Source of the DNA: a virus
Taxonomy: Duplodnaviria > Caudoviricetes
Direction: 5' to 3' (one strand)
IMG/VR virus record: IMGVR_UViG_2868946205_000003
DNA: 64,000 nt
A model generated the notes under the pieces. That model had not been told where the DNA came from, searched no databases, and was given only the letters and a program-made list of their open reading frames with translations. Made by a program: the position numbers and the translations under genes. Shown here piece by piece: positions 1,141 to 19,158 of this stretch (positions are counted from its first letter, which is position 1; each line of letters opens with the position of its first letter).

Positions 1141-1366
1141 CTGAAAGAATCCTTTTCAGTAGTGGGTTATCTGATTTATTTATTGTGGGTTCGGAGATCA
1201 TGCCGATAAAACGCGCATCTTGTTCCACCATCCATTTACGCCCGACTTTTTTCGGTGGTGGGGAAATCATGTTGTGCTTGGCATAGTGATATAGTGTGTT
1301 ATTCGATGGTTTTTCATCACCGAATTCTTCTATTGCCCACACTTTGAGTAAAAGCATTCGCGCCAT
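1130..1366 (-). CDS. xis: Excisionase
   Basis: 78 aa, PPPKKVGRKWMV motif, overlaps the int start. Confidence 0.9.
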   Translation of the reverse strand: MARMLLLKVWAIEEFGDEKPSNNTLYHYAKHNMISPPPKKVGRKWMVEQDARFIGMISEPTINKSDNPLLKRILSDGR

Positions 1367-1444
1367 TGGTCAGTCCTTATAAAAGGCGTGCCAAAGACAC
1401 GCCCGTATTCTGGTCGTTTGGTCTGGGTAAGGAAGGGGCTTTGG

Positions 1445-1852
1445 TTAGTAGAAGGTCCAGTTTTCCGTTTCGGCGTTATGGCCGAAGTGGTATTCGATCT
1501 GCGGGGAGGACAAATCCAGCTTTTTCATTTCTTCAACAACGGTAGTGATAATGGCGATATCCTGATTTAACCGTCTCAGATGATATTTTTTTCGACGTAG
1601 CAGGCTTTCTAACGCAAGCTGTTGTGATGGGAAGGCAAAAGAGCGCTCTGATGATTTTGCGACTTTCTTGATCGCGTATCGCATACTTTTCTTTTTCCAT
1701 CCGTCGAGCCACCGCGCCTTGTCCCTATCGATGTCATAAACCTTAGCCCAGTGAGCAGGGCACCGAAAGGCATAACTATTGGTCTGGTGAAAGGCAATAT
1801 ATTGCTCGGCGATAACTTCAATTCCCGCTTCCTGAACGGTTTCAAAATATCG
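1445..1852 (-). pseudogene. 5'-truncated conserved lambdoid early hypothetical gene
   Basis: The frame of ORF 1445-1684 stays open upstream (RYFETVQEAGIEVIAEQYIAFHQT) to a TGA at 1853-1855 with no start/RBS; resembles a ~150-aa coliphage protein ending FGHNxETENWxFY (recalled). Confidence 0.6.
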
Positions 1853-1863
1853 TCAGTAAGGGG

Positions 1864-1893
1864 ATAGCCGCATCACAGAACAGACGCGGCTAT
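1864..1893 (-). terminator. Hairpin, possible terminator
   Basis: ATAGCCGC...GCGGCTAT inverted repeat after ORF 1913-2719; no good U tract. Confidence 0.4.
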
Positions 1894-1912
1894 GTTATGG
1901 AGATATCAGCGA

Positions 1913-2719
1913 TCAGTAATCGCCGGGGTAATACACCTCGTCAGCGTCGTCCTGATCGAGCACTAACAAGCTGTCACCGTAGTAAAGCGCTGCGACCAGC
2001 TTTTCAAAGCGGGTATAGAAAGCGATAACTTTCTTACCGAGAATATCGCCGTCACATTTCCCTGAATACAGGCCGTAACATTTGATCCCGTCGTGTGTAA
2101 TTTCTTTTTTCTGTCCGTTTTCATATTCGACGGCTTCAGAAAAATAAAGGTTGTTACTAAATTCAAAGGGATGCGTTTTACGTTTGGTGCTCGACCAACT
2201 CCGTTCTTCAAACTGCTCTTTCTCTAATCCTACGCGGAAGCCACCGTACTCACTGTATTCCATCAGTACTTCAGGGCGTTGCCATCCTTCCTGAGCTGCT
2301 GCTTCCTGATGGTCTTCAATAAACGCAGCCCACAGATCGGACGCTTTAATGAATTTTGGGATCTGCTTTTCAGTGATGAACGCAGTGACCTTTTTGCGCA
2401 TCTCCGTCACTAACTGGTCAGATACTGCTTCTTGCTCCCACTGCGTTGCCAGCTCTTTTAACAGCAGAAGGTTATAGCGTGGCAGATCTACGACATCGGT
2501 AATATTGGCGGGGAGGGCAGATTGCAGCGCACGCCTAACGGCATCGGGGAATGTGCCCCAACTGAACGTATCGTTGATGGCCTTTTCATACAGTTTGGCG
2601 ACATGTTCACGAAGCATTGCCTGATACGCATCGGATTTTTCAAACGCGGCACAGTGAGCGGCGATATCGACCGCAAGGCTTGCAGCGTTCACGGTTACTT
2701 CAGTGGTGTTATTGGTCAT
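1913..2719 (-). CDS. Hypothetical phage protein (268 aa)
   Basis: Long ORF starting in the repeated AAGGACTGACCAATG motif. Confidence 0.85.
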   Translation of the reverse strand: MTNNTTEVTVNAASLAVDIAAHCAAFEKSDAYQAMLREHVAKLYEKAINDTFSWGTFPDAVRRALQSALPANITDVVDLPRYNLLLLKELATQWEQEAVSDQLVTEMRKKVTAFITEKQIPKFIKASDLWAAFIEDHQEAAAQEGWQRPEVLMEYSEYGGFRVGLEKEQFEERSWSSTKRKTHPFEFSNNLYFSEAVEYENGQKKEITHDGIKCYGLYSGKCDGDILGKKVIAFYTRFEKLVAALYYGDSLLVLDQDDADEVYYPGDY

Positions 2720-2735
2720 TGGTCAGTCCTTATTT

Positions 2736-3158
2736 TCACATTTCTTTTGTTAAGCGATCCAATATCACCGCTTTAGATGGCAACGGCAGTTGCTGAGCCA
2801 GTTGCCATTGTTTGCGCTGAATTTGGGTTTTGTGCGTCAGCAGTTTACGGATATCGCCAACCGGGATACTGGTATCTTTGGCGATCACGTTTTCGTTGAT
2901 GCCGCGGCGGTGCAACTGATAGATGCTGAGCATGATGGATGACGAGTAATGACGACGTGCGCCAATACGCGGCGTTACTGGTTTCTGTTTCTGAGGATCA
3001 TAGCCCGTGTAAATGGGTTTAGGTTCCGGTTTATACGGTTCCCCCACGCGTATTGATGATCGGGTTCGCATTCGGTAAATGATGACTGGCAGCCAGTTAC
3101 ATTTGTCGTCTTCTGGCTTAAACAGCACGCCAACAGGGTTCAATTTTTCTTCCATCAT
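2736..3158 (-). CDS. Hypothetical protein with probable C-terminal HTH
   Basis: ATGA overlap with upstream gene, GAGG RBS; HTH-like ENVIAKDTSIPVGDIRKLL. Confidence 0.75.
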   Translation of the reverse strand: MMEEKLNPVGVLFKPEDDKCNWLPVIIYRMRTRSSIRVGEPYKPEPKPIYTGYDPQKQKPVTPRIGARRHYSSSIMLSIYQLHRRGINENVIAKDTSIPVGDIRKLLTHKTQIQRKQWQLAQQLPLPSKAVILDRLTKEM

Positions 3159-4294
3159 GCCGCCTCGTTCTGTTTTTGTGCCAATTCCCAATCCTTTACT
3201 AGCCCCATGCACTTCGCATGTACCTGACGGGCAGTACTGATCCCAAAACCTTTCACTTTCTCGGCCAGCGCATCCGGTGTGCGGCGAACCACATCAAACA
3301 TCGAGTGAATGCCCGCTGCGCTGAGTAGGTCGAGGTGTTGCTCTTTCAACGGAAGCGAACCGGCCAGCACGGATTCCGCCCATTCAGCACGCCGAACTAA
3401 GTGAGGATGCGTTGCTTCCAGCAGCTCACGAATACGTGCGGTAATGGCTTCCGTTAAGCCATCCGGCCATGAGTCTCTGAAGTTTTCTACGGTGGGGTAG
3501 ATTGGTGCCGCCCATTCCGACACTGACACGATCATGCAGATACCGATGGTGCTGCGGATCTCAAGGTGCCAGTCGATATCGTTCAGGATTTTTACGTCAT
3601 ACTCAGGGGAATAAAGCTGTAATCCCCATTGGAAGGTGTAGAAATAGAACTGCACGCCGTTGGCGGCCTGCCAATAGCGTTGCTCAACGTCACCATCAGC
3701 ACGCTGTAGGCGTGCCCTCATATCCGCGATCGCGTGATTCAACTCATCGTTGAGCTGAACCATCGTTGATAGCTTGCTGGTTTTATCAGCCGCTTCCTTC
3801 TTCAACCGACGAATTTCAGCCAGTTGCTGATCGCGTAGCGTGCGACTGTCGTTCAAGTCGTTTTTTACGCGTGCCAGTTGTGCTTTAAGGCGCTCAGGGT
3901 TGAGGGATTTCAACTGGTTCAACTCGGTTGCCAACATCCCTTTTTCGGTGATGGCCAGCTTATATTTTGCAGTGACGCTATCGCGCTCGGCAGTGGCTTC
4001 GGCGGCTACCAGTTCTGCACTTTCAACACGTTCCTGAACCTGTGTCAGCGCTAATGCTTTGGTGGTCAGGTCGTTTTCGGCAGCCTCCAGCCGGTCAATA
4101 ATGGCGTTGTAATAATCGACTTCTTTATTCAGTTGCTCGATGCACAGGGTCTGTACTTGATCTAATAAAACCGTCGCGCTTTCGACGGAGCGCTGAACGA
4201 TCCCCGTGGTTTGTTCGATAGCTAAATCGAGTTGCGCCCGAACGGGGCGCAGGGAAGACTCCAACACGCCAGCGGCGGTTGTCGTGGTTGTCAT
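3155..4294 (-). CDS. Coiled-coil protein with C-terminal helix-hairpin-helix-like domain
   Basis: Heptad-rich first ~200 aa; C-terminal LAEKVKGFGISTARQV. Confidence 0.8.
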   Translation of the reverse strand: MTTTTTAAGVLESSLRPVRAQLDLAIEQTTGIVQRSVESATVLLDQVQTLCIEQLNKEVDYYNAIIDRLEAAENDLTTKALALTQVQERVESAELVAAEATAERDSVTAKYKLAITEKGMLATELNQLKSLNPERLKAQLARVKNDLNDSRTLRDQQLAEIRRLKKEAADKTSKLSTMVQLNDELNHAIADMRARLQRADGDVEQRYWQAANGVQFYFYTFQWGLQLYSPEYDVKILNDIDWHLEIRSTIGICMIVSVSEWAAPIYPTVENFRDSWPDGLTEAITARIRELLEATHPHLVRRAEWAESVLAGSLPLKEQHLDLLSAAGIHSMFDVVRRTPDALAEKVKGFGISTARQVHAKCMGLVKDWELAQKQNEAA

Positions 4295-4332
4295 AATGAT
4301 TTCCTGATGTTATCCCCAGTAAGGGGGAAGAA

Positions 4333-5883
4333 TTAATTACGGAGGGTGAATGAGCGGACGAGATTGTTGGCGACGGCATCCAGTAATTTTTTAGCTGTTG
4401 CCTTGGTGATCTTAATTTCAACACTAGCCAAATCTACCAGCAGCAAATCCAGTAGCCATTTAAGGTCAGGCTGCGTTGCGGCAGGTTGAGAGGCTTCGCC
4501 CAGCTTTTCCGGCCAGTTGACGGTGCCTGGTGGATAGAGAGGTGTGCGAGCTACTTGTGTAAGAGGCTCGGTTACCGTTTGCTGTGCCTGCAAGCGTTCT
4601 TCTTCCAATTTTTTCTGGTTAGAAACACGCTGCTCGATCAATAAACTAATATGATCTGGGCTATTACCAACGAGCTGGTTCAGATCGGCAAACAGGTTTT
4701 TATACTCTGGCGGCACAGCATCAAATAGCTTTAGATTGTCACGGTACTGTGTGGCTATTTGATTCGCCTCGACCTTTGCCCGAGCCAATTCGTCGTTTGC
4801 TGCACCGTGCAGAGAAACTAGCGTTTTCTTGCCCTTAATCACACTGACGAAATCCGCAGGGACTGGCGGGAGTCGGACAACTGCCAGATCAGCATTCAGC
4901 ACATTGATGTGCTGCGCCAAATCCTCTTTTGCTTTGCTAATAATCTCTGCGCGGATCTCGTCTTTACGTGATTTTACCAGCCGCGTGATCTCCAGCCGTT
5001 TGCCGCGCATTTCCTCGCGTAGGGTATCGATGGTGCGGAATAGCTGATCAATCTGCACCGTTTGCGAAAGCGCCTGCTGCTTAATCAGATCCAGCTCTTT
5101 TTCTGCTTTATCACAGAATTTGGCCGTTTCTTCCGCATCAGCAAAATCCTGATCGGTGGTCAGATTGGTGTTGATGGCACGGATAAAGGCCAACGCCTTC
5201 CCTTCATAAACTGCCAGGTTGGACTGCTTCACTGTTCCTTCAATTTCAACCAGTAACGCAGGCAGACGCATAATCGCTTTACCCTGTGGTAATTCGTTAA
5301 TAACAGGAGCGGCATAGTTATTCAGATCCTGTTCAAACTGTTCCCATCCAGCGAGTAGGGCAGCAGCACGCCCGGCGACGGGAAGGTATTCCGTCCAGGC
5401 GAAATTGTCTTCCGTGCCATCGGATACCACAAAAATGGCGCGTCTGGCCTCACTGACCAGCAGTTGCTGTTCTAACTGCCAGTAATACTCAGACGGCAGG
5501 TCGTGATTGTTAACGTGTTCGGCTAATGATGCGTTCCACATCTTATGTTCAAACACGGTATCTTCCATCATGGTGATACCGTCGAATGACGCCAGTAAGC
5601 GCTCATCGTCAGAAACGGCTGTTGCGGGGAAGAGTTCGTCGCCGATAATCCCTTCGACGATGCAGCGCGCGGCGGCTTCGTACTCATGGCCTTTATCGAA
5701 CAGATTTTTCTGCACCCACTCGCTCACTTCGCGTTCGGTTCCGGTCGCTTTCATGCGCAGCAACTCATCGCGGCGCATTTTGCTGGAAGCCGCCATCATC
5801 ACGGGGGCTTCGCTGGCGGTGAAATGTTTGGCACGCAGTGCGTGCCATGCGTCTGTGCCCTGTTGGACATTAATGATTTGCAT
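4333..5883 (-). CDS. YqaJ-family phage exonuclease with long helical extension
   Basis: QGTDAWHALRAKHFTASEAP, ASFDG and FEHK nuclease motifs; start overlaps the bet end. Confidence 0.93.
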   Translation of the reverse strand: MQIINVQQGTDAWHALRAKHFTASEAPVMMAASSKMRRDELLRMKATGTEREVSEWVQKNLFDKGHEYEAAARCIVEGIIGDELFPATAVSDDERLLASFDGITMMEDTVFEHKMWNASLAEHVNNHDLPSEYYWQLEQQLLVSEARRAIFVVSDGTEDNFAWTEYLPVAGRAAALLAGWEQFEQDLNNYAAPVINELPQGKAIMRLPALLVEIEGTVKQSNLAVYEGKALAFIRAINTNLTTDQDFADAEETAKFCDKAEKELDLIKQQALSQTVQIDQLFRTIDTLREEMRGKRLEITRLVKSRKDEIRAEIISKAKEDLAQHINVLNADLAVVRLPPVPADFVSVIKGKKTLVSLHGAANDELARAKVEANQIATQYRDNLKLFDAVPPEYKNLFADLNQLVGNSPDHISLLIEQRVSNQKKLEEERLQAQQTVTEPLTQVARTPLYPPGTVNWPEKLGEASQPAATQPDLKWLLDLLLVDLASVEIKITKATAKKLLDAVANNLVRSFTLRN

Positions 5884-6712
5884 GAGGTGGCTCCAGATCG
5901 CGGATCGCGAGGATTTGTTCTTCGGAAAGGGTGTATTTGCTGCTGGCGGTAGCGATAATTTGCTGCGCGGTTTTCTTGCCACTTTCCATCAGTTGTTGCC
6001 AGGCGGTCAGATTGGCGGAGAAACGCTCTTGTGGGTAATAGGGAATTGCCAATGTTTCAGATGTTGCTGCCTTTGGCGTAATATCCCGGGCATTGTTGTA
6101 ATCCAGATCCTTGCCTTCCATTTCTTCCGCCGTGGGCTGCTGGCCGATTTCAGGCCATGCCTTACGCAACGCCTGAGCCTCTGCACATTTTGCTAATTGC
6201 GCATAAGGGCGGCGTTTCCACATGGCATTGGGGGCTTTGGTGTCTTTGCTGGCGGTGGCGTAGTTCTCCAGCCAATACTCTTTGGCGCTGAACTCCACGA
6301 TGTGACCGTCAGGCATCAGCTTATAGACGGTGTATTTGCACCAGGCAGGAAAGGTGATTTCGACTTCATTCAGCTTATGAATCGTATCAGGTCCGAACTC
6401 TGGTTCTTTTGCGCCGGCGTAACTGCCTGAGCGGTCGGCTTGAATGCGATATAGGCCAATGCCAGGCATGACCACATCACGCCACCCATACTGCCCTGAT
6501 TGAGCATCTTTAACGTTCATGGGCACGAGATGAACGGGTTTCATCAGCGGATCGAGGCTACGGGCGTGGCAGTAATTCACTGCCAGAATGATGGATTCTT
6601 CTTTGGCTCCCGGAAAAACGCTGCTTTTCAGCGCGCTCCAGGTCGGCTCATCAATGCCGAGACTTGCCATCGTCGGCGGCAACGCCGAGTTGGCAACAGT
6701 GTTGTTGGTCAT
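5870..6712 (-). CDS. bet: Phage recombination protein Bet (ssDNA annealing)
   Basis: LDPLMKPVHLVP, GIGLYRIQADRSG, QLAKCAEAQALRKAWP motifs; paired with the exonuclease. Confidence 0.93.
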   Translation of the reverse strand: MTNNTVANSALPPTMASLGIDEPTWSALKSSVFPGAKEESIILAVNYCHARSLDPLMKPVHLVPMNVKDAQSGQYGWRDVVMPGIGLYRIQADRSGSYAGAKEPEFGPDTIHKLNEVEITFPAWCKYTVYKLMPDGHIVEFSAKEYWLENYATASKDTKAPNAMWKRRPYAQLAKCAEAQALRKAWPEIGQQPTAEEMEGKDLDYNNARDITPKAATSETLAIPYYPQERFSANLTAWQQLMESGKKTAQQIIATASSKYTLSEEQILAIRDLEPPHANH

Positions 6713-6724
6713 GGTCAGTCCTTA

Positions 6725-6871
6725 TTACAGAATTAATGACAAAACAGAAAACGCAGCCGCGATGACGACGATCGGGAATATCAGGCCATTTGTCTGCTGT
6801 GGATGTTGGTGAATATTGTGGCTACCGACGCGGTGGCGGTACTGGATATGTTTAACGGAGGTCGAGGGCAT
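6725..6871 (-). CDS. Small protein (48 aa) with C-terminal transmembrane helix
   Basis: Not in ORF track; AAGGAG RBS, MPSTSVKHIQYRHR...LIFPIVVIAAAFSVLSLIL, stop abuts the bet RBS. Confidence 0.7.
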   Translation of the reverse strand: MPSTSVKHIQYRHRVGSHNIHQHPQQTNGLIFPIVVIAAAFSVLSLIL

Positions 6872-6904
6872 GGTATGCTCCTTGGCGATCGGGTTGGTCC
6901 CCGA

Positions 6905-6928
6905 TCAACTGCTAATGACTATGGTCAT
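6905..6928 (-). other. 7-codon mini-ORF MTIVISS starting in the conserved start motif
   Basis: ATAAGGACTGACCA-ATG ACC ATA GTC ATT AGC AGT TGA. Confidence 0.5.
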
Positions 6929-7009
6929 TGGTCAGTCCTTATGGTCAACGGTTTGGTCGCTGTTGACCGGGATAGCCCCGGTGCAAACTGGGGCTTTTCT
7001 CTTTTTGGG

Positions 7010-7345: not shown

Positions 7346-7421
7346 CGGAAACCTCGCTTTTTGCCAATAAACTTACTCATGCGCCCTGAATGAGCAGGGC
7401 ACATGGTGAAAGCCTACTGAG

Positions 7422-7682
7422 TTACTCTTCGGTCTTTTCCTCGTTGATGCGCTGATAAGGGAAGCGATCGGTGTGAGGTTTGATGTTGCGATAGAAGTGG
7501 CTACCGACTGAATCAGCACCGGAGAACGCAGCGAAGTCGTCGGTTTTCACGTTGCTGTAGTGATACAGGCTGCCCGGCGCGTCGCCACGACCGTTGAAAC
7601 GAATGGCCAGCGTGTTGGTTACTGGGTCGTGACCGATGCTGTGGATCTGAGATGATTTAACGGGGGTCATGCTGATGGTCAT
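7422..7682 (-). CDS. KTSC domain protein
   Basis: PVKSSQIHSIGHD...YHYSNV...ADSVGSHFYRNIK; start at the motif variant AAGGACTCACCAATG. Confidence 0.9.
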   Translation of the reverse strand: MTISMTPVKSSQIHSIGHDPVTNTLAIRFNGRGDAPGSLYHYSNVKTDDFAAFSGADSVGSHFYRNIKPHTDRFPYQRINEEKTEE

Positions 7683-7705
7683 TGGTGAGTCCTTATCGAA
7701 AGAAA

Positions 7706-7795: not shown

Positions 7796-7806
7796 GAGTT
7801 AGGTAT

Positions 7807-8079
7807 TTAGTAAACGCCGCGTGGCATTTTGCTGTTGCCGCGTATTTTCTGACGTCCGACTGCTGAGTAGCCAACGTAACGATCTGGATCGCTACCGTCG
7901 TTGGTTTTAACTGAACACAATTTTTTAGGTTGGGCAGGGTGGTCTGTAATTGAATGGCAACTCACAGCAGCCTGAACTGCTCTTGTTACGCGGTCACTTT
8001 TTCGCTGAGTGATACGCTGAAGGTTCTCTACGCACTGGCGCGCATTTGCAGTGCGGCGTTTTTTACGTGGCTTGGTCAT
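7807..8079 (-). CDS. N-like antitermination protein
   Basis: Arg/Lys-rich N-terminus; ENLQRI and GRQKIRG resemble lambda N (ESNLQRI, GRQKIKG); early in the pL operon. Confidence 0.75.
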   Translation of the reverse strand: MTKPRKKRRTANARQCVENLQRITQRKSDRVTRAVQAAVSCHSITDHPAQPKKLCSVKTNDGSDPDRYVGYSAVGRQKIRGNSKMPRGVY

Positions 8080-8206
8080 TGGTCAGTCCTTATGGTTTGC
8101 TTTGGTGGTTTAGTGGCGGGCGCTGAACTCCGCATTAGGGGTTTGCGATGAGAGAATCCACCCAAATCTTCTCCTATCATCGCAATGAGTGAATCAGCCT
8201 TCACAT

Positions 8207-8634: not shown

Positions 8635-8750
8635 TTTTGCGTGGTTTATTGACGTTTGCTATTGAACAAAAAGGATATTTATTTTTTACCTGTCCGATGT
8701 ATAAACTTCACTTCGATGAACTTGTGGCTTTATGAACTTAAGGAAGAGTT

Positions 8751-11162: not shown

Positions 11163-11178
11163 CACCAAGGACTGACCA

Positions 11179-11535
11179 ATGACCACAATACGTCAACCTG
11201 CCGCACCAACGGCAGGGGCCGCGATCGCTTCTGGCGTTCGCAAGGAGTTGCTTTCCCGCAAGAAAGTGGGCAAGGCTGGCTTGCCGTTCCACGTTGTGCG
11301 GGAAGACCAGATCAAAACTCGCTGGACTGAAAGCGAAGCCGCCACCATCAAAAGTGTGGCTGGCGCTATGTCATCAAATCCCGCCGTTGAAACCAACACC
11401 GCCGCTATTCGTGGCTTTCTGGCTATGTTCGCTGAATCTCCAGACATGTTGGCGCATGTTCATGCCGAACTGAAGGCCGCAGGTCTGTCGATTCCCGACT
11501 GGTTACCGCCGTTGCCGGAAGGGGCTACGCGATGA
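11179..11535 (+). CDS. Hypothetical protein in the cII position
   Basis: Starts in the conserved AAGGACTGACCAATG motif; not recognisably CII. Confidence 0.75.
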   Translation: MTTIRQPAAPTAGAAIASGVRKELLSRKKVGKAGLPFHVVREDQIKTRWTESEAATIKSVAGAMSSNPAVETNTAAIRGFLAMFAESPDMLAHVHAELKAAGLSIPDWLPPLPEGATR

Positions 11536-12797: not shown

Positions 12798-13602
12798 CGA
12801 ACGCACTGATTTAGCGGTGAAGCGCGAGTTTGCTGAGCTGCTGAAAGCGACACTGGCCGTGTACGGCAAGGATTCATCGAAAGCCGTGATCCGCCTGTAC
12901 TGGAATGCTGTCGGTTCATTCGACATCGGACTGATTCGGCAGGCGCTCAGCCAGTGGATCACCGATCCCGAGCAGGGGCGCTACGCACCAAAACCCGCCG
13001 ATATTATTCGCAACATCCAGCGTCTCACCGGCCGCCCGTCGTGGGTTAGCGCTAATGAGGCGTGGGCAATCGCGCTGCCTGCACAGGATGAGGCTAACAC
13101 GCTGATTTGGACAGCGGAGATCGCTCAGGCATGGCGTGTAGCTGAACCTATTTTCACTGATGGCGATCGCGTTGGGGCACGAATGGCGTTTATTGCTGCC
13201 TACGAACGCCTTGTTGCGACCGCTCAGTCTTCTGGCGTCTTGCCGCAGTGGACGGTTTCGGAAGGCTGGGACAAAGGGGCTGTGAAAGGTGCGGTAGAAC
13301 AGGCTGTTAACGCAGGGTTATTACCTGCACCGGATGCTACGCGATATTTATCCCCGCCTGCCAGCTTGCCCCCGCCAAAGGTGGACAGAGGAAAGCGGGA
13401 TGGGATGTTGGCAAAAATTCAGGCATTCGCCGGGATATTGCTGGATCAGAAAGAACAACGGGAGACACAGGAACGGCACGAAAGGGAGGAGCGAAGAGCA
13501 CTAGCAAACAAGGAGTTAGATAAGCGCTACCAAGATGAATTACGCCGTGCTGCTGACCACAGCACAACTGATGAAAACCAAGCAATAAGGGCTGACCAAT
13601 GA
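12784..13602 (+). CDS. Replication protein / helicase-loader-like
   Basis: Follows the initiator; [11 protein letters not shown] and [12 protein letters not shown] motifs. Confidence 0.75.
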
Positions 13603-14741
13603 GTATGACGTTTAAAAATGCACTGATTTATCGCCTGAATAGCGATGTGATGTTTGATGAGCTGGAAAAGAAACTGGCTCCGTTTGCGTTCACCCCATGC
13701 GGTAGCCAGGACAGAGCAAAAACGGGCTGGATATCGCCTATTTGTCCGCTGCTCGATGTGCTTTCTCACCAGGCTAACGGGCAGATCATGCTTACGTTGC
13801 AGCGCGAAGAAAAGATCCTGCCTGCACCCGTGATTGCGCGTGAGCTGGCCGCCAAAATCGACAGCATGGAAACCGTGCAGCGGCGCCGTCTGAAGAAAAC
13901 CGAGAAAGACGCGCTGAAGGATGAAGTTATCCAAACGCTCCTGCCGCGTGCGTTCAGTAAATACCATACCACCAAGATTTGGATTAACGCAGGGGCTGGG
14001 CTGATCATCGTTGATGCCGCCAGCGGCAAAAAAGCGGAAGATGCTCTGGCGCTGCTGCGTAAAACGCTTGGATCGCTGCCCGTTGTGCCGCTGATGCTGG
14101 AAACGCCCATTGAACTGACGCTGACCGAGTGGGTTCGCAACGGTAAAGCGCCGGCGGGTTTTGTTTTGCAGGAAGAGGCCGAGTTAAAAGCCGTGTTGGA
14201 AGAAGGCGGCATTCTGCGCAGCAAGCATCAGGATCTGACCAGTGATGAAATCACCAATCATATCGACGCAGGCAAACTGGTCACCAAGCTGGCGCTGGAA
14301 TGGCGCGAACGCATCAGTTTTGTGCTGGCCGATGATGGCAGCCTGAAAAAGCTGAAATTCTCCGACTCTTTACTCGAGCAGAATGACGATATCGATCGTG
14401 CAGATGAGGTCGCGCGTTTTGACGCCGATTTCGTGTTGCTGACAGGGGAATTGTCGGCGCTGATCCGTGAACTGGTGGCAGCGCTGAGTGGTGAAAATAA
14501 GCGTGGGGATGTGGTGGAAGCCACCGTTACTGGTAGCGAAGATTTGGATAAAGATCCGCTATACGACGACGCCGTGAAATTTCTCACTGGCAAATCGGAA
14601 GGGTCAATTTCTCAGCTACAGCGCCATTTCCGCATCGGCTACAACCGCGCAGCCAGGCTGATAGAAGCACTTGAGAATGACGGTGCCATTTCCACACCTG
14701 CGTATAACGGCATTCGGAAAGTGATCGGGGTGGTGGCATGA
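13599..14741 (+). CDS. rdgC: RdgC fused to a C-terminal FtsK-gamma domain
   Basis: [32 protein letters not shown]; C-terminal DPLYDDAV...[21 protein letters not shown]. Confidence 0.93.
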
Positions 14742-15403
14742 TCGATTTCTCCGAAACCGAATATGTATCTTCCTTGTTGTGCCAGAAGTCAGAATCAGCA
14801 CACCTGCTGAGAGACGTCGGTGACCAATGGCGCACACCTGATCCGCTTTTCTGGGGCATCAATGCGATGTTTGGCCCGCTTGTTCTCGATCTGTTTACCG
14901 ATGGCGAAAATAGCAAATGTCCGGCGTTTTACACGGCAGAGGACAATGCGCTGGCGCAGGATTGGGCAGCGCGGTTAGCAGAATTAAACGGTGCCGCATT
15001 CGCTAACCCTCCGTACAGCACAGCGAAAATGCATGAGGGTGAATATATCACCGGCATGCGTCACATCATGGCCCACACAGCCAAAATGAGGGAGTGCGGC
15101 GGGCGCTATGTTTTCCTCATTAAGTCGGCCACGTCTGAAGTGTGGTGGCCGGAGCAGGCCGATCACGTTGCATTCATCCGTGGACGTATCGGCTTTGACG
15201 TCCCCACCTGGTTCAAGCCTAAAGACGATAAGCAAATTCCCAGCAGCGCAGGCTTTGGTGCGGCAATTGCCGTGTTTGATAAGGAATGGCGAGGTTCGGC
15301 TATCAGCTACATTCAACGGGAAAAACTGCTGGCGACGGGGGAAGCGTTTTTAGCGCAGATCCAGCGTGAGGCGGGGCGACTGATAAGTAGAGAGGCCGCA
15401 TGA
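14738..15403 (+). CDS. Phage N6-adenine DNA methyltransferase (Dam-type)
   Basis: DQWRTP, NPPYS and IRGRIGF motifs. Confidence 0.93.
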
Positions 15404-16047
15404 CAACAGCTATCCGCACCAAATCACCGAAAAAGCATAAAACCGAAGCACTGGGCGTTCTACTGCCTGGCGGCGGCATCAAATACTGTACCGATCATGA
15501 TCGTGACGTAATGAAAGGGGTGCCAATCGGCACCCCGATCTCGCTCACACCTATCGGCGACCGGCGCAATATCAAACACCACCGTAAATTCTGGGCGTTG
15601 CTGGATCTGGGGTTTTCGTATTGGGAACCAGAATGGGCATTTGTCAGCAGATCAGAGTCATGGATAGCCCAAGAGGTTGCCAAAGAGCTGGCGCAGGAAG
15701 CAGGTAATCTATCGCTCTATGAAAACGTGACGAAAGGCATTGCAGGGCGGGTATTAGAAAAAGTGGCCGCCCAGCGCCGCCAGCGCTTTGATCCTGAGGC
15801 AGTTAAAACCAAAGATGCCTACCTGAATCACGTCATGGTAAAAGCCGGATTCTATGACCTAGCTCCTAATCCTGATGGCGGTACGCTTAAACAGCGCTGG
15901 AGCATCGCATTCGTCAACATGGGGCAAGAGAAATTCGACAAGGTTTATCGTGGTGTATTTGGCGTGATCTGGAATGAGACGTTGAGCCAGTATTTTGCTG
16001 ATGAATATGAAATGGAAAACGCAGTTAGCCAACTGATGAGCTTTTGA
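15400..16047 (+). CDS. DUF1367-like nin-region protein
   Basis: RNIKHHRKFWALLDLGFSYWEP and SIAFVNMGQEKF. Confidence 0.85.
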   Translation: MTTAIRTKSPKKHKTEALGVLLPGGGIKYCTDHDRDVMKGVPIGTPISLTPIGDRRNIKHHRKFWALLDLGFSYWEPEWAFVSRSESWIAQEVAKELAQEAGNLSLYENVTKGIAGRVLEKVAAQRRQRFDPEAVKTKDAYLNHVMVKAGFYDLAPNPDGGTLKQRWSIAFVNMGQEKFDKVYRGVFGVIWNETLSQYFADEYEMENAVSQLMSF

Positions 16048-16049
16048 TT

Positions 16050-16358
16050 ATGATAAGAAAATCTCCTGCTTTCAGAAGCAAAGTGTTACGTGAGTCTGCC
16101 CGAGGGCAGGCTTGCACCTTGCAGATCCCTGGCATCTGTAACGGTAATCCCGAAACAACGGTATTGTGTCATCTTCCAAGTCCCACGCATGGTATGGGAT
16201 ATAAAGGCGATGACTTCTGGGCTGTATACGGCTGCTCATCTTGCCACGATGTGATTGATGGGCGCGTGCTGTATGACTGGCGGGCGGGGGAGAAAGAAGA
16301 AGTATTGCTTCAGGCGCTGTATTTGACATTCAGATGGACTGCCATGGTTAAAAATTAA
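16050..16358 (+). CDS. DUF1364-like zinc-binding putative nuclease
   Basis: ARGQACTLQIPGICNGNPETTVLCH, CSSCHDVID. Confidence 0.88.
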   Translation: MIRKSPAFRSKVLRESARGQACTLQIPGICNGNPETTVLCHLPSPTHGMGYKGDDFWAVYGCSSCHDVIDGRVLYDWRAGEKEEVLLQALYLTFRWTAMVKN

Positions 16359-16404
16359 TCTAAAGTTAAAGGTCTGATAATAATTTTCCATAAAGGAGAT
16401 CTAT

Positions 16405-17274
16405 ATGACAGGTTTCAATGGTGATGTTAAAAAATTTGTTAACGATGCAATGGATGAATACTGTAACCAGTGGAAAGTTAATTCAGAAGGGATTAAAAAA
16501 TGTGATGGATACAAGTGGATGTCAAGTTTTTTAAATGAAGCAAAGTTTGTTCTCGAAATTGGTTGTGGTGCCGGCTTGTCTACAAAACAGTTGCTTGCTG
16601 ATGGGCATAAAGTCATTTCTATTGATGAAAATCCTAAATGTCTTGAAACCGCTAAAGGTAATCTTGAAGATGCGGGATTTAAGGTGTTACTTGTTCTTCG
16701 TGGAAAAATAACAAAGGAAAGGTATAAAAAATCTAATGGAGCTATTGAGTATACAATAAAATATTTTAATGATTTTTTTGAGGTGATTAATGAAGATGAA
16801 TATGATGCTATACTAATTGAAAGTGATGTATGGGATTATTCACTTTTAAGCGAGTGGTTGAAACCCAAAGAAATAGATGCTGTGATTTGTTGGCTAATAG
16901 GTTCACATGGCGCCAGGTCATTCAATAAGATTCTAATAAATAACGGGAATCCTAAGTCAGGACATCATTATCGTATACTTACACAAAATAAAGTTTATGA
17001 ACTGGCTGATGCTATTTTAGGAAAAGATGGAATGCTACATATTGTAGACAGAGGTGCTTTGGTTAACGAGGATGAAGAGAAAAAAATTAGGCAATGTCAC
17101 GAAGAGCAAGCAAGTGTAACTTCGATGAAAATAACAACTATTGATAGCGTGTTATATCGTGAAAGTAATGAGGATGGTGCAATGAAAATGATCAATGAAG
17201 ACATATATACTAATAAAGTAAACCAAGTTGAAGGTGATACATATCTCATTTCTGTTCTCTCTAAGAAGGGTTGA
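16405..17274 (+). CDS. Class I SAM-dependent methyltransferase-like protein, AT-rich moron
   Basis: VLEIGCGAGLST motif I; AAGGAG RBS. Confidence 0.85.
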   Translation: MTGFNGDVKKFVNDAMDEYCNQWKVNSEGIKKCDGYKWMSSFLNEAKFVLEIGCGAGLSTKQLLADGHKVISIDENPKCLETAKGNLEDAGFKVLLVLRGKITKERYKKSNGAIEYTIKYFNDFFEVINEDEYDAILIESDVWDYSLLSEWLKPKEIDAVICWLIGSHGARSFNKILINNGNPKSGHHYRILTQNKVYELADAILGKDGMLHIVDRGALVNEDEEKKIRQCHEEQASVTSMKITTIDSVLYRESNEDGAMKMINEDIYTNKVNQVEGDTYLISVLSKKG

Positions 17275-17296
17275 GTAAAATAATCATATCAGATGT

Positions 17297-17480
17297 TTTC
17301 TGGCACTTCCTCGCGGCGGGTATGGTGGCCTGTGGATTGAGATGAAAGCTAAGGGCGGTAAGTTATCGACTCAGCAAGAGATTTGGATCAAAAAAAACCT
17401 CAGCCGTGGGGTATAAAACTCAGGTATGCTTTGGTTATGAACATGCTATCCGCAGCATAGCTAACTATTTTAATAAATAA
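17297..17480 (+). pseudogene. VRR-NUC nuclease remnant (3' half, frameshifted)
   Basis: FLALPRGGYGGLWIEMKAKGGKLSTQQEIWIKK, a shift at the A8 tract 17390-17397, then SAVGYKTQVCFGYEHAIRSIANYFNK*. Confidence 0.8.
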
Positions 17481-17494
17481 AATGGAATGTTTAT

Positions 17495-18259
17495 ATGAAA
17501 GAAAATAAAAATCTAATGTCTATCTGTTATGAGGGAACCTCTGGTTCTATAGATATAAGGACATGCTATATAGATGAAATTCTTTATTTTTCTTTAAAAG
17601 ATATTTTTATTGTATTAAACAAAGAGAATAGAGAGTTAGGGGAGGTTAACCCTACAAAGTTCATTCCTAATTTGATCAAAGGTCAAATAAATGATCTTGA
17701 TTCCGATGAATATAAAAATATTCCAGTTAATAATGGAAGATTCGATGAGGAAACAGAGGTTTTTGTCACTCAGCCAGGTCTGAATAGGATAATGGGTAAT
17801 GACAAATCTAAAGCGGGAAGGCGATTTCAACGTTGGCTTTATCATGAAGTAGTACCATCGTTAACCAAGCATGGAGTATACCCACCGCCAGTGACAGCTC
17901 AGGGGTCGGCGCTGACAAAAATGGCTGAAGTTGTTGTGCAAAATGCTATAGCTGTAGCGGAGCTTTTTAGACAGAATGATGAGCTGTCTAGAAAAGTGGA
18001 AAATGTAGATTCAAGGTTGTCTAAACTAGAAGGTAATTCTGACGAACCGCACATAATGACAGTAAGGAAATTTTTTGATAAGCAAGAATTATTTTTATCT
18101 GAGAAGACAGAGTTTGATATCGTACTTTGGTGTGAAAATTTAGCTTTAAGCTATGGGAAGTCACAAAGAAAATGTCCATCAGGGGATAGATTGAAGACCA
18201 AGTTTTATCAAATAATAATTGAAGAAGCTAAAGACTTGGTTGAAAAGGCACGGGGCTAA
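17495..18259 (+). CDS. BRO-N domain (antirepressor-like) protein, AT-rich
   Basis: FVTQPGLNRI...AGRRFQRWLYHEVVPSLTKHGVY. Confidence 0.88.
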   Translation: MKENKNLMSICYEGTSGSIDIRTCYIDEILYFSLKDIFIVLNKENRELGEVNPTKFIPNLIKGQINDLDSDEYKNIPVNNGRFDEETEVFVTQPGLNRIMGNDKSKAGRRFQRWLYHEVVPSLTKHGVYPPPVTAQGSALTKMAEVVVQNAIAVAELFRQNDELSRKVENVDSRLSKLEGNSDEPHIMTVRKFFDKQELFLSEKTEFDIVLWCENLALSYGKSQRKCPSGDRLKTKFYQIIIEEAKDLVEKARG

Positions 18260-18348
18260 TTTAGCCCACGTTGTAAATTGTAATATTGTTGCTCTCTGTA
18301 AACTAAATCATACAATCAGCCTGATGATATCATTTCAGGACTGACCAA

Positions 18349-19158
18349 ATGACCATAGCCATAGAACAACTTATCAAGATGCACGATCCGCATTGTATGA
18401 GTATTGAATCACTGAACATAGGGCGCGGGCAAGGCATTCTTTCCAAAGATCAGATCGTTGGCGCGTTTGCTACAGCTCAACATCGCCATTCCGTTGGCTT
18501 TGATTTGTTAATGACAAAATACCGCCACGATAGCCAGGCAGAACAGCGTATTCGAGATGCTATTTCTAACTGGGTAAAAACTCGAACTCACCTCATGCAC
18601 TCGGACTCTGCCTGTCAGTTGGCGCTAAGTATGGTGCTTGATCGCAATCTGCCCGCGCAAATCGATCATATCGCTGGGCTACTACGCAGATACGGCGCTA
18701 AAGCGGCGCAGTCGCGCAAGAATACCAATGCATTGCGTGCAGAGATAAAGCAGCTTGAAAGGCAGCGCTGTCGCGAAAAGGTGAGCCACGCCGATTACAT
18801 TAGCGCGGGGATCGAAATCACCGAACTTAACGAGCGAATAAGTCATGAACGTAAAGCGCTGCGGGAATGGTCGGATCTCCAGGCGGCACAATTAAATGTC
18901 TGCCCACGTTGTAGCGGAACAGGAAAAACGCAGCGCCCTGTCATTACCGTCTGTAACGAGTGTGGTGGTAATGGGCATATTGTGGCGACGTTCGAACATC
19001 TGCGTAAATCATTGGCTATCATAGGGGCTGTGATATCTGCTGGTGAATGGCCGAAATATTTGGATCTGGTTAAGAGTTGCATGCGCTGGTTGTATGTTGA
19101 AGAGTCTCAGGCGGTTAGCACCCTCAGCACTAAAATTTATGATGAAATGGAGGCATGA
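18349..19158 (+). CDS. Q-like late antitermination protein
   Basis: CPRCSGTG...CNECGGNG zinc motifs; upstream of the late promoter and lysis genes. Confidence 0.82.
   Translation: MTIAIEQLIKMHDPHCMSIESLNIGRGQGILSKDQIVGAFATAQHRHSVGFDLLMTKYRHDSQAEQRIRDAISNWVKTRTHLMHSDSACQLALSMVLDRNLPAQIDHIAGLLRRYGAKAAQSRKNTNALRAEIKQLERQRCREKVSHADYISAGIEITELNERISHERKALREWSDLQAAQLNVCPRCSGTGKTQRPVITVCNECGGNGHIVATFEHLRKSLAIIGAVISAGEWPKYLDLVKSCMRWLYVEESQAVSTLSTKIYDEMEA

What the first reader, a model, noticed from the sequence alone, without database searches (positions are those of the whole stretch)
1364..18354. One conserved sequence forms the RBS and start codon of nine phage ORFs
Seen: (AT)AAGGACTGACCAATG(ACC) is the translation start of xis (1364-1380), the 268-aa ORF (2717-2733), a mini-ORF (6926-6942), N (8077-8093) and the cII-position gene (11167-11181). 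Variants start bet (6710-6725, one A fewer), KTSC (7680-7696, G>C), rdgC (13585-13601, A>G) and Q (18337-18351, one extra A). All are in the sense orientation of their gene, on both strands, and the second codon is often ACC. I saw none at structural genes or in the Mu-like prophage. A Shine-Dalgarno site does not need a conserved spacer, so extra selection is implied. Inference: a regulon controlled at translation initiation by an RNA or protein, comparable to the start-associated sequences of cluster K mycobacteriophages. Alternative: a cassette-boundary recombination sequence.
Basis: partly seen in the sequence, partly recalled or inferred. Interest (0 to 1): 0.85.

Follow-up and report, generated by a model that had tools for sequence, protein, structure and literature searches.

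The report
Shared early-gene start tag, antisense leader
Nine early genes of a lambda-like prophage begin with the same 20-letter ribosome-binding tag, and the leader of the phage's late transcript carries the exact complement of that tag, which suggests that one phage RNA switches the whole set of early genes off.

Summary
AAGGACTGACCAATG occurs 5 times exactly (0 expected), and 4 close variants also sit on start codons. All 9 are in the sense of their gene, in the early operons of a lambdoid prophage. The conserved block is 20 nt, TAAGGACTGACCAATGACCA.

The tag belongs to the phage, not the host. In 5 whole genomes, 26 of 32 hits lie in one prophage early region. Related prophages of Pectobacterium, Brenneria, Serratia and Yersinia use it on at least 16 gene classes.

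It lies downstream of Q and upstream of the lysis genes. It follows a sigma-70 late promoter and sits unpaired between two terminator hairpins. It can pair with SD through AUG of every tagged gene over 15 bp. Every relative examined has it.

Best reading (0.6): the late-leader RNA base-pairs with the tag and blocks translation of the early genes. Expression is not shown.

A parallel exists in cluster K1 mycobacteriophages. Adephagia's single reverse start-associated sequence lies in a hairpin loop, in the gap where late transcription is reported to start.

Rivals are a recombination linker, a protein regulator, or an inherited strong start site.

The parts
1360..1379 (-). Start tag of xis (78 aa, ATG at 1366)
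   Evidence: Exact 15-mer. Context. Pfam Exc and phrog_629. Preceded by a terminator-like hairpin.
2713..2732 (-). Start tag of the 268-aa ORF (phrog_2600, function unknown)
   Evidence: Exact 15-mer..
6706..6724 (-). Start tag of the RecT-family annealing protein ('bet'), with one A fewer before the ATG
   Evidence: Core exact. Context. Pfam RecT and phrog_2449. The same spacing variant occurs in relatives.
6887..6995 (-). Conserved region of four hairpins that holds the 'mini-ORF' tag copy (tag at 6922-6941). Hairpin C (6907-6937) pairs the tag with an imperfect partner in cis.
   Evidence: Fold z = -4.88. In an alignment of 10 relatives the tag-partner pair at columns 55-75 is AU in 7 and GC in 3, which is compensatory.
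7676..7695 (-). Start tag of the KTSC-domain gene (86 aa), G>C variant
   Evidence: Pfam KTSC 1.5e-17.
8073..8092 (-). Start tag of the N-position gene (90 aa, arginine-rich N-terminus, no family hit)
   Evidence: Exact 15-mer..
11166..11185 (+). Start tag of the cII-position gene (118 aa, no family hit), just after the Cro-like gene
   Evidence: Exact 15-mer.. Cro-like gene at 10875-11162.
13586..13605 (+). Start tag of RdgC (380 aa), A>G variant. The upstream gene ends in the ATGA of the tag.
   Evidence: Pfam RdgC 6.9e-113.
18336..18355 (+). Start tag of the Q-like antiterminator (269 aa), with one extra A
   Evidence: Core exact.. phrog_127 2.2e-13.
19552..19580 (+). Late (pR'-like) promoter: -35 TTGACC, 17-nt spacer, -10 TAAATT
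   Evidence: Promoter scan. TTG at the -35 position with a 17-nt spacer in 32 of 32 unique seed-bearing relatives, although the spacers differ.
19591..19626 (+). Leader hairpin 1 plus U6 (terminator-like, t1)
   Evidence: Folds. Compensatory and G-U variants fit this strand only. The same unit recurs at 28532.
19625..19640 (+). Anti-tag seed UAUUGGUCAGUCCUC, predicted unpaired. It is complementary to -11..+3 of the tag.
   Evidence: Conserved in the relatives.
19641..19672 (+). Leader hairpin 2 plus U6 (terminator t2). The endolysin gene starts at 19696.
   Evidence: Folds. Endolysin, holin and spanin lie downstream.
28532..28640 (+). Second copy of the same -10, hairpin 1 and U7 unit, without the seed, between the portal-side gene and the head genes
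   Evidence: It serves as an internal control: the seed is not needed for the promoter and terminator unit.

Best explanation
The 20-nt block TAAGGACTGACCAATGACCA is an address tag built into the translation start (SD, spacer, AUG, second codon) of a set of early genes of a lambdoid prophage lineage.

Its partner is the 5' leader of the Q-dependent late transcript. This RNA is predicted to start near 19587. It has a hairpin with a U-tract (t1), then the unpaired sequence AUUGGUCAGUCCUC, then a strong terminator (t2). The same RNA is the first ~90 nt of the long late mRNA when Q lets the polymerase read through.

The unpaired sequence can form 15 contiguous pairs with every tag: 13 Watson-Crick pairs, one G-U at the G of AUG, and one A-U. 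These pairs cover the AGGA of the SD through the A after AUG. The inferred result is that 30S binding is blocked, and cleavage of the duplex may follow.

The inferred biological role is to silence xis, recT, N, cII, rdgC, Q and the other tagged genes as one set whenever leader RNA is abundant. That would be after Q acts (early-to-late shutoff, with negative feedback on Q). To the extent that t1 is read through, it would also apply in lysogens, damping leaky early expression.

Shown: the tag, its restriction to the phage, the complementary leader element, its position, its predicted structure and its conservation.
Inferred: that the leader is transcribed, that the RNAs pair, and that pairing represses translation.
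For: 1. Complementarity. The only antisense copy in the 93-kb record lies at 19626-19640.

2. Position. It lies after the Q-like gene and a 131-aa ORF, and 56 nt before the endolysin, holin and spanin genes. This is the pR'-tR' position.

3. Promoter. TTGACC-17-TAAATT in the window. In 32 of 32 unique seed-bearing relatives TTG keeps the -35 position with a 17-nt spacer, although the spacer sequence diverges.

4. Structure.
- Two hairpins with the seed unpaired: MFE -34.9 kcal/mol, z = -4.45, 0 of 200 shuffles fold as well.
- In 25 unique leaders there are 22 consensus pairs, 4 with changes on both sides, and G-U pairs that would be C-A mismatches on the other strand.

5. Conservation of the seed.
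- One seed downstream of Q in 6 of 6 cases where that DNA was held: the window, P. betavasculorum, S. quinivorans, B. alni, Brenneria sp. and L055.
- All 40 instances found through the t2 22-mer alone carry ATTGGTCAGT.
- Among the 25 unique leaders the only seed change is C>U in L196, which still pairs as G-U.

6. Internal control. A paralogous promoter-hairpin unit in the same phages lacks the seed or has a decayed one: GGTCCGTCC in B. alni, TTAGTCCTT in B. corticis.

7. Co-occurrence. 9 of 9 further leader-bearing virus records hold 1-7 tag copies with at most 1 mismatch; the reversed control pattern gives 0.

8. Duplex energies. -19.6 to -29.7 kcal/mol for the 9 tagged starts, against a median of -9.8 for 498 ORF starts. 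Seven of the 8 best are tagged.

9. The conserved block (-13..+6) is nearly the paired stretch (-11..+3).

10. Pairing with the tag is selected at least in cis. At the mini-ORF copy, the Serratia tag variant A>G is matched by U>C in its hairpin partner.

11. Convergent parallel in cluster K1.
- Adephagia has 16 forward SAS and one reverse SAS.
- The reverse one sits in the 10-nt loop of a long hairpin in the gp92-gp93 gap.
- A paper states that late transcription appears to initiate in that gap (PMC11373665, passage).
- Anaya has the same loop in the syntenic gap.

12. Precedent. The PR'-tR' short RNA of Stx phages is the Hfq-binding regulator StxS (PMC7547250, abstract). The lambda 6S RNA is reported as Hfq-dependent, with its function unexplored (PMC12197685, section 2).
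Against: - No expression data. The public RNA runs found held only assembled contigs of relatives, which give no transcript ends, strand or level.
- Hairpin 1 with its U-tract looks like an efficient terminator. In Serratia-type second units it is the only one before a gene. Without Q, most transcripts may therefore stop before the seed.
- No covariation between seed and tag was found, because the seed hardly varies.
- Among 1-mismatch tag variants, changes that keep pairing (A>G, C>U) outnumber disruptive ones by about 15 to 7 contexts (my tally). That is close to what transitions alone would give.
- G>A or G>C at core position 7 recurs at the KTSC, cII and rdgC tags, and it breaks the duplex.
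- Conservation at +4..+6 (CCA) and -13/-12 (TA) is not explained by the 15-bp duplex.
- The whole leader is highly conserved (mean column identity 80%), so an invariant seed alone does not prove selection for pairing.
- All carriers belong to one phage lineage, so co-occurrence is not independent evidence.
- The cluster K parallel held in 2 of 4 phages examined. Nothing was found in the last 3 kb of Pixie or TM4.
Confidence: 0.6

Rival explanations
1. Recombination linker (the 'boundary sequence' idea). The 20-bp block is a short homology at gene boundaries. The phage's RecT-type recombinase or the host system exchanges gene cassettes at it, and repeated crossovers keep the copies identical.
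For: - The same tag joins different flanks. The N-position and cII-position genes keep the tag while their upstream flanks fall into at least 6 and at least 8 unrelated classes, and at least 16 gene classes carry it.
- In L014, the flank that normally precedes recT is followed by the tag and then by unrelated DNA with no ATG. This is a junction exactly at the tag.
- The phage encodes RecT and RdgC.
- The block has stop codons in all three frames plus SD plus ATG (read from the sequence). A universal junction would need exactly that.
- Short conserved boundary sequences have been proposed as crossover points (PMC3029335, passages).
Against: - It does not explain the antisense copy inside the conserved late leader. 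The mosaic breaks there lie at the -10 element and after t2, not at the seed.
- Six to seven direct repeats in one operon, plus inverted copies in the other, would cause deletions and inversions in a phage with its own annealing protein.
- It does not explain the fixed register to the AUG, or the restriction to early genes.
- Only 1 junction without a gene start was seen among 229 unique contexts.
Confidence: 0.12
2. Protein regulon. A phage-encoded or host RNA-binding protein recognises the tag and represses or activates initiation. Candidates are a RegA-like repressor or the GGA-binding CsrA/RsmA. The antisense copy would then be unrelated to this.
For: - T4 RegA represses about 30 mRNAs through sites that overlap the AUG. 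T4 RegB cuts GGAG in early start regions (PMC3014915, passages).
- The tag contains AAGGA.
- Conservation extends to +6, beyond the RNA duplex.
- GACCAA recurs in the loops of two covarying hairpins beside the mini-ORF copy.
Against: - A protein that reads the sense RNA would not bind the complementary leader RNA. The conserved anti-tag would be left unexplained.
- No candidate protein was identified. Homologues of RegA, RegB or CsrA were not searched for here.
- GACCAA is not clearly enriched in the window: 39 found against 30.3 expected, and 7 of 100 shuffles reach 39.
Confidence: 0.12
3. Inherited efficient start site. The tag is simply a good ribosome-binding site with an ACC second codon. 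It spread by duplication and descent within one phage lineage. The antisense copy is a fossil of an inverted gene start, carried along with the conserved terminator region.
For: - All carriers are related prophages.
- The whole leader is conserved, not only the seed.
- SD-to-AUG spacing tolerates an A more or an A fewer at Q and recT.
Against: - Flanks diverge to background within 2 nt on either side of the block, while the block stays at 78-100% in 64 to 144 contexts.
- A spacer needs no fixed sequence in order to work.
- A fossil should decay. The seeds of the paralogous second units did decay, yet the Q-proximal seed is intact in 32 of 32 unique variants.
- In L209, which has no leader unit within 9 kb downstream of Q, the tags are degenerate. 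This is one case only.
Confidence: 0.1

Closest known systems
Start-associated sequences (SAS) of cluster K mycobacteriophages (Pope et al. 2011, PMC3203893)
   Same: - A short asymmetric conserved sequence that contains the SD core.
- It sits at the starts of many non-structural genes, in the sense orientation.
- It occurs on genes of different families and is absent from the host.
- Conservation goes beyond what rRNA pairing needs.
- One copy lies in the opposite orientation, away from a gene start. Here that copy was located in a hairpin loop in the late-transcription start gap of Adephagia and Anaya.
   Different: - Different sequence: GGGATAGGAGCCC.
- Different phage lineage and host phylum.
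- SAS lies 3-7 bp from the start codon. Here the AUG and the second codon are part of the block, at a fixed distance (plus or minus one A).
- Half of the SAS have an upstream inverted repeat (ESAS), now read as a promoter. None was looked for here.
- The function of SAS is still stated to be unknown in the passages read from PMC11373665 and PMC12699233.
StxS and lambda 6S RNA: short PR'-tR' transcripts of lambdoid phages
   Same: Both come from the constitutive late promoter just downstream of Q and end at the terminator that Q overrides. StxS binds Hfq and acts by base-pairing in trans, including on a phage transcript, stx1AB (PMC7547250, abstract).
   Different: - Sequence similarity to StxS was not tested, because no StxS sequence was on hand. 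There was no Rfam match and no match of the leader in 5,426 E. coli genomes or in INPHARED phages.
- The predicted targets here are the phage's own early genes, addressed by one shared tag. They are not rpoS or a toxin gene.
- The seed lies between two tandem terminators.
T4 RegB endoribonuclease and RegA translational repressor
   Same: Both are a post-transcriptional shut-off of many early phage genes that acts on their translation start regions. RegB cuts GGAG in SD sites. RegA binds sites that overlap the AUG (PMC3014915, passages).
   Different: The T4 effectors are proteins and their target sites are loose, with no exact shared sequence. Here the proposed effector is an RNA and the target is a nearly invariant 15-20-mer.
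Boundary (linker) sequences of lambdoid phages in the modular theory
   Same: Short conserved sequences at gene boundaries, between modules that are otherwise unrelated (PMC3029335, passages; seen here).
   Different: Those are proposed crossover sites with no role in expression. The papers on them were not read here, only the passages that cite them. The tag here is part of the start codon context and has a complementary partner in the late leader.
Classical phage antisense RNAs (P22 sar, lambda OOP, lambda aQ)
   Same: Phage RNAs that repress phage regulatory genes by base-pairing (PMC12197685, section 2).
   Different: Those are cis-encoded, overlap their single target gene and are fully complementary to it. 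Here one trans-encoded seed would address nine or more dispersed genes.

Membership tests
Cluster K start-associated sequences (SAS) | Conserved asymmetric sequence with an SD core at the starts of many non-structural genes, in one orientation | tested here: met
   9 sense copies at early-gene starts and none at late genes.
Cluster K start-associated sequences (SAS) | The 13-bp consensus GGGATAGGAGCCC in cluster K mycobacteriophages | tested here: not met
   The sequence here is TAAGGACTGACCAATGACCA and the hosts are Enterobacterales. It is analogous, not a member.
Cluster K start-associated sequences (SAS) | Virtually absent from the host genome | tested here: met
   26 of 32 hits in 5 genomes lie inside one prophage region each. 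6 lie elsewhere, against 5 control hits.
Cluster K start-associated sequences (SAS) | Extended SAS: 17-bp inverted repeats upstream of about half of the sites | not tested
   No search for upstream inverted repeats was run.
PR'-tR' short late-leader RNA (StxS / lambda 6S kind) | Sigma-70 promoter just downstream of the Q antiterminator gene and upstream of the lysis genes | tested here: met
   By prediction and conservation only. (32 of 32 with TTG at -35).
PR'-tR' short late-leader RNA (StxS / lambda 6S kind) | Intrinsic terminator within about 50-200 nt that Q must override | tested here: met
   By prediction. Two hairpins, each followed by U6, with covarying stems. The simple terminator scan did not list them, because its loop limit is 8 nt.
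PR'-tR' short late-leader RNA (StxS / lambda 6S kind) | The short RNA accumulates and binds Hfq | tested here: inconclusive
   The RNA runs gave only contigs of relatives. Hfq binding cannot be tested with these tools.
PR'-tR' short late-leader RNA (StxS / lambda 6S kind) | Sequence homology to StxS or 6S | tested here: inconclusive
   No Rfam hit. No match in E. coli genomes or INPHARED phages. No direct comparison with an StxS sequence was made.
Trans-acting seed-pairing sRNA | Unpaired seed complementary to the start region of several mRNAs, followed by a terminator hairpin with a U tail | tested here: met
   By prediction..
Lambdoid boundary/linker sequences | Short conserved sequence at the junction of otherwise unrelated modules | tested here: met
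   The same tag occurs with many unrelated flanks.
Lambdoid boundary/linker sequences | Acts as the crossover point of recombination | tested here: inconclusive
   One junction lies exactly at the tag (L014). No control for untagged boundaries was run.
T4 RegA/RegB-type protein control of early start regions | A phage protein that binds or cuts the start regions | not tested
   No search for RegA or RegB homologues was run. The passages served for comparison only.

The most novel reading that the evidence does not exclude
Temperate phages of unrelated lineages have converged on the same device. They stamp a fixed 'address tag' on the translation starts of their early or non-structural genes. 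They place its complement, exposed between or within hairpins, in the first ~100 nt of the late transcript. Turning on late transcription then switches off translation of the whole early set by RNA-RNA pairing.

The enterobacterial lambdoid prophages described here would be one instance. The cluster K1 mycobacteriophages would be another. That would give a function to the start-associated sequences, whose role has been open since 2011.
Probability: 0.35. Interest if true: 0.92.

Novelty: new variant of a known kind. Interest (0 to 1): 0.85.

Why it matters
If the pairing is real, it would be a phage regulon defined by an identical sequence written into many start sites, read by a single RNA that is a by-product of the Q antitermination switch. 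It would add a translational layer to the textbook lambda early-to-late cascade.

It would also give a function to the late-leader RNA beyond the one known case (StxS).

It offers a concrete and easily tested hypothesis for the cluster K start-associated sequences, whose role has been called unknown or ill-defined in the 2011, 2024 and 2025 papers read here.

In practice, the tag and leader pair would be a compact, orthogonal, multi-gene translational off-switch for synthetic biology. It would also be a marker for annotating true start codons and late promoters in these prophages.

Tried and rejected
Extended pairing of the tag with the 16S rRNA 3' end. Considered by eye only: TAAGGA matches, the rest does not align without bulges. 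No computation was run, and the idea was dropped.

RNA-seq evidence.
- The look-up of sequencing runs listed 13 runs, each holding 5-10% of the sampled words.
- Read laying on X1, X5, X7 and X13 gave only Logan contigs of related prophages. Their edges sit at homology borders or at the repeated promoter unit.
- They show neither transcription nor transcript ends, so they do not count for or against.

Order-level scan for the seed 14-mer. 61 of 401 genomes matched, but the reversed control also hit roughly 40 genomes. The pattern is too AT-rich to be informative, so the planned second scan was dropped.

Rfam. No family at gathering score in the window. Only chance-level hits with E above 2 appeared on the leader.

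Named relatives.
- Megablast of 1-20000 against INPHARED gave only short matches of at most 106 nt.
- The leader alone gave one 44-nt hit at E = 0.009.
- There was no match in E. coli genomes.

Literature search for the motif or seed strings found 0 papers.

Covariation between seed and tag.
- The only seed variant (L196, C>U) sits in a phage with canonical tags, which gives a G-U pair. It is compatible but not covariation.
- A tally of tag variants by whether they preserve pairing was not clearly different from a transition bias.

More distant relatives found through the Q protein. 10 loci were returned, of which 2 were new. L210 has the leader. L209 has degenerate tags and no leader unit within 9 kb. 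This is suggestive but is a single case.

GACCAA as the true unit. It is not clearly enriched: 39 found against 30.3 expected. CTGACCAA is enriched (11 against 1.9), but 9 of those 11 are the known sites.

Host look-alike AAGGAGTGACCAATG. It lies at the start of an ABC-permease gene in Pectobacterium and Brenneria. It was not pursued.

A mosaic-breakpoint statistic at tagged versus untagged boundaries was considered and not run. A break at the tag is expected under every hypothesis.

Full report
**1. The observation**

The 15-mer AAGGACTGACCAATG occurs exactly 5 times in the 64-kb window. None of 100 dinucleotide-preserving shuffles contains it. Allowing up to 2 mismatches gives 8 sites against 0.13 expected.

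The 9-nt core GGACTGACC is exact at 8 places and has one mismatch at two more gene starts. The other ten 1-mismatch hits are scattered and match the background of 8.7.

Read in the sense of the local operon, nine sites end in an ATG that opens an ORF:
- xis (Pfam Exc);
- a 268-aa ORF (phrog_2600);
- a RecT-family annealing protein, with one A fewer;
- a 7-codon mini-ORF;
- a KTSC-domain gene (G>C);
- the N-position gene;
- the cII-position gene;
- RdgC (A>G);
- a Q-like antiterminator, with one A more.

N and cII are named by position only.

About 31 ORF starts lie in the early region, so 9 of about 31 carry the tag.

Nothing comparable lies at the lysis, terminase, portal or head genes. Nothing lies in the second prophage either; it has its own terminase, portal and a phrog_310 transposase.

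**2. Extent of the block**

I collected 144 unique contexts from relatives, or 64 when one is taken per N-terminal hexapeptide. They were selected only on the core plus AATG.

Conservation continues outside the selected part:
- T (70%) and A (62-69%) at -13 and -12;
- A, C, C, A (90, 88-90, 83, 78-83%) at +3 to +6;
- background beyond that.

The unit is therefore TAAGGACTGACCAATGACCA. By inspection it has a stop codon in each frame (TAA, TGA, and the TGA of ATGA), an SD, an ATG and usually a Thr codon.

**3. It belongs to a phage lineage, not to the host**

The window is a virus record of 93,086 bases, so there is no host genome to scan.

The exact 18-mer is found in 58 stretches of IMG/VR contigs, often several per contig.

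It is found in 45 stretches of species-representative genomes.
- 11 of these stretches come from 7 Enterobacterales species: Serratia quinivorans, Yersinia alsatica, two Pectobacterium and three Brenneria. All multi-copy cases are among them.
- The other 34 stretches are single matches in unrelated taxa. By my own arithmetic this is about what chance gives for an 18-mer in 596 Gb.

In five of the whole genomes, 26 of 32 hits with at most 1 mismatch fall in one 2-22-kb cluster per genome. Minus-strand copies lie on one side and plus-strand copies on the other, as in divergent pL and pR operons. Six hits lie elsewhere, against five hits of the reversed control pattern.

It is not met.

Across the relatives the tag heads at least 16 classes of genes. 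They include four different N-position proteins, two kinds of annealing protein, Q, RdgC, KTSC, Xis and several unknowns. The DNA on either side of the tag is unrelated from class to class.

**4. The tenth copy**

The site at 19626-19640 is on the minus strand, in a region where every gene is on the plus strand, and it has ATA instead of ATG.

On the plus strand the region reads, in order:
- the end of a 131-aa ORF that follows Q;
- TTGACC, 17 nt, TAAATT (also found by the promoter scan);
- a hairpin ACCGGAG...CUCCGGU followed by U6;
- AUUGGUCAGUCCUC;
- a strong hairpin AAGCCUGC...GCAGGCUU followed by U6;
- 24 nt later, the endolysin gene, then holin and spanin.

This is the position and layout of a lambdoid late promoter with its terminator.

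Folded as RNA from the predicted start, the 96 nt give two hairpins with the middle sequence unpaired. The MFE is -34.9 kcal/mol, z = -4.45, and 0 of 200 shuffles fold as well.

The unpaired sequence is complementary to the tag from the A of AGGA through the A after AUG. That is 13 Watson-Crick pairs, a G-U at the G of AUG, and an A-U.

**5. Conservation of the leader**

The antisense element is present once, 0.9-1.5 kb downstream of the Q start, in all 6 cases where I held that DNA.

A search with only the terminator-2 22-mer returned 35 IMG/VR stretches. Together with loci already held, that makes 40 instances and 28 unique contexts, and every one has ATTGGTCAGT in front.

A search with only the 5' unit (the -10 element plus the start of hairpin 1, with no seed in the pattern) returned 90 stretches.
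- Among contexts with enough upstream DNA, 32 unique ones carry the seed.
- All 32 have TTG at the -35 position with a 17-nt spacer, although the spacer sequences differ widely.
- That supports a real promoter with a variable, Q-specific spacer.

In an alignment of 25 unique leaders, RNAalifold predicts 22 pairs in the two hairpins and leaves the seed unpaired.
- Four pairs show changes on both sides.
- Several are G-U in some sequences, which would be C-A mismatches on the other strand.
- The transcribed strand is therefore the Q-sense strand.

The single seed variant (C>U, L196) occurs with canonical tags and still pairs as G-U.

A Yersinia-type class has two partial seeds in tandem. In its predicted fold, the first seed pairs with a downstream CUGACUA, and the second is displayed in a 12-nt loop.

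**6. An internal control**

Each phage has a second copy of the same -10, hairpin 1 and U7 unit. In the window it lies at 28532, between the portal-side gene and the head genes.

It lacks the seed. In two Brenneria prophages it has a decayed version, GGTCCGTCC or TTAGTCCTT. The seed is therefore not needed for the promoter-terminator unit, and it erodes where it is apparently not selected.

The same comparison raises a caveat. In Serratia-type second units, hairpin 1 with its U-tract is the only terminator before a gene. It is probably an efficient terminator, so without Q many transcripts may stop before the seed.

**7. Fit between seed and targets**

RNAduplex energies between the seed region and -22..+12 of the nine tagged starts run from -19.6 (the KTSC variant) to -29.7 kcal/mol. 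The median for 498 ORF starts of the record is -9.8. Seven of the eight best are tagged.

Nine further leader-bearing virus records all contain tag copies (1-7 each, at most 1 mismatch), with zero control hits.

A more distant relative, L209 (Q 52% identical), has no leader unit within 9 kb downstream of Q, and its tags are degenerate. This is one case only.

**8. The mini-ORF**

The copy at 6922-6941 lies in a strongly structured stretch, 6887-6995, z = -4.88.

In ten relatives the tag itself is paired with a downstream partner in cis. The Serratia tag variant (A>G) is matched by a U>C change in the partner: the pair at columns 55-75 is AU in 7 and GC in 3.

This copy is better read as an RNA element that masks a tag than as a gene. 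Its role is open; it could be a decoy for the leader, or control of the 48-aa ORF that follows.

**9. What does not fit, and what is missing**

- No expression evidence could be obtained.
- There is no seed-tag covariation, because the seed does not vary.
- Tag variants that keep pairing outnumber those that break it, but not clearly beyond a transition bias. G>A or G>C at core position 7 recurs.
- The CCA at +4..+6 lies outside the duplex. It may reflect a second register: UGACCA is repeated in the tag. That idea is untested.
- The whole leader is well conserved (80% mean column identity).
- All carriers are one lineage.

**10. Comparison with what is known**

Cluster K SAS is the nearest analogue for the tag. 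It is a 13-bp sequence with an SD core, 3-7 bp from the start, at non-structural genes, absent from hosts, and the authors leave open whether its binder is RNA or protein (PMC3203893, passages).

[quoted passage not shown] I located it.
- In Adephagia there are 16 forward sites and one reverse site. The reverse one lies in the 432-bp gap between gp92 and gp93.
- On the transcribed strand it sits in the 10-nt loop (CCUCCUAUCC) of a long hairpin: z = -6.67 for 181 nt and -5.77 for 73 nt.
- Anaya has the same loop in the syntenic gap.
- The last 3 kb of Pixie and TM4 have none.
- In the passages I read, neither the 2024 paper nor a 2025 survey of 188 cluster K genomes assigns a function to SAS. 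The 2025 text does not contain the word 'antisense'.

This is the same architecture in an unrelated phage lineage. It is the main reason for my confidence in the RNA-RNA reading.

For the leader, the nearest known thing is StxS, the PR'-tR' short RNA of Stx phages. It binds Hfq and regulates in trans (PMC7547250, abstract). The lambda 6S RNA is reported as Hfq-dependent with no known function (PMC12197685, section 2).

In function, the closest are T4 RegB and RegA, proteins that inactivate many early mRNAs at their start regions (PMC3014915, passages).

Lambdoid 'boundary sequences' are the nearest form of the recombination rival (PMC3029335, passages).

I found no paper containing the tag or seed strings, no Rfam family, and no named phage or E. 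coli genome with the leader.

**11. Verdict**

The most likely mechanism, at 0.6, is antisense control of a tagged early regulon by the late-leader RNA. The tag, the partner, and the partner's position, structure and conservation are shown. Transcription, pairing and repression are inferred.

Recombination at the tag may well happen as a side effect; one junction was seen. It does not explain the antisense copy.

I rate this a new variant of a known kind: a late-leader sRNA of the StxS kind, with a hard-wired multi-gene target tag of the SAS kind. Interest is high, because it is directly testable and may explain SAS.

Noticed in passing
L211:46683-46695 (Adephagia JF704105, record 58682-58694); L212:2071-2083 (Anaya): The single reverse-oriented start-associated sequence of cluster K1 phages lies in the 10-nt loop of a long hairpin. 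The hairpin is in the intergenic gap where Adephagia late transcription is reported to begin. Nothing similar was found in the last 3 kb of Pixie or TM4.
   Followed up: partly
window 28532-28640 (+): A second copy of the late-promoter -10, hairpin 1 and U7 unit, followed by its own second hairpin, sits between the portal-side gene and the head genes. The phage therefore seems to have two Q-type late start and terminator units. Relatives have two or three.
   Followed up: partly
window 6887-6995 (-): Four consecutive hairpins with covarying stems surround the mini-ORF tag. The loops of the second and fourth hairpins carry GACCAA, which matches the 5' part of the leader seed. The region could be a decoy for the leader RNA or a protein-binding platform.
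   Followed up: partly
L117:1428-1537 (-) and other Yersinia-type leaders: The leader has two partial seeds in tandem. In the predicted fold the first pairs with a downstream CUGACUA, and the second is shown in a 12-nt loop.
   Followed up: partly
L014, 5237-5247 of its reverse strand (script index): The flank that normally precedes the recT gene is followed by the tag and then by unrelated DNA with no start codon. This looks like a deletion or replacement junction lying exactly at the tag.
   Followed up: partly
L215:223-237 (G001 contig 21) and L216:220-234 (G003 contig 51): The host sequence AAGGAGTGACCAATG starts an ABC-transporter permease gene (Pfam BPD_transp_1). It is conserved in Pectobacterium and Brenneria and differs from the tag by one base. 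It may be a chance look-alike or a possible host target.
   Followed up: partly
window ~31500-64000: The lambdoid prophage shows no tail genes after its major head gene (29846-31069). From about 32.6 kb a second prophage follows, with a tail fibre, tape measure, protease, portal and terminase on the minus strand and a phrog_310 transposase at 61433-63202. The Mu-like element may have inserted into, or replaced part of, the lambdoid late region.
   Followed up: no
L209 (IMG/VR record G013): A relative with a Q protein 52% identical has degenerate tags: GGACTGATCCGTG at the cII-position gene and GGGCTGGTCAATATG at Q. It has no leader unit within 9 kb downstream of Q. This may be joint decay of tag and seed.
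   Followed up: partly
window 13596-13602 and relatives: At rdgC, the upstream gene reads through the tag and stops in its ATGA. The tag's three-frame stops therefore also serve as a coupling junction at some sites.
   Followed up: no
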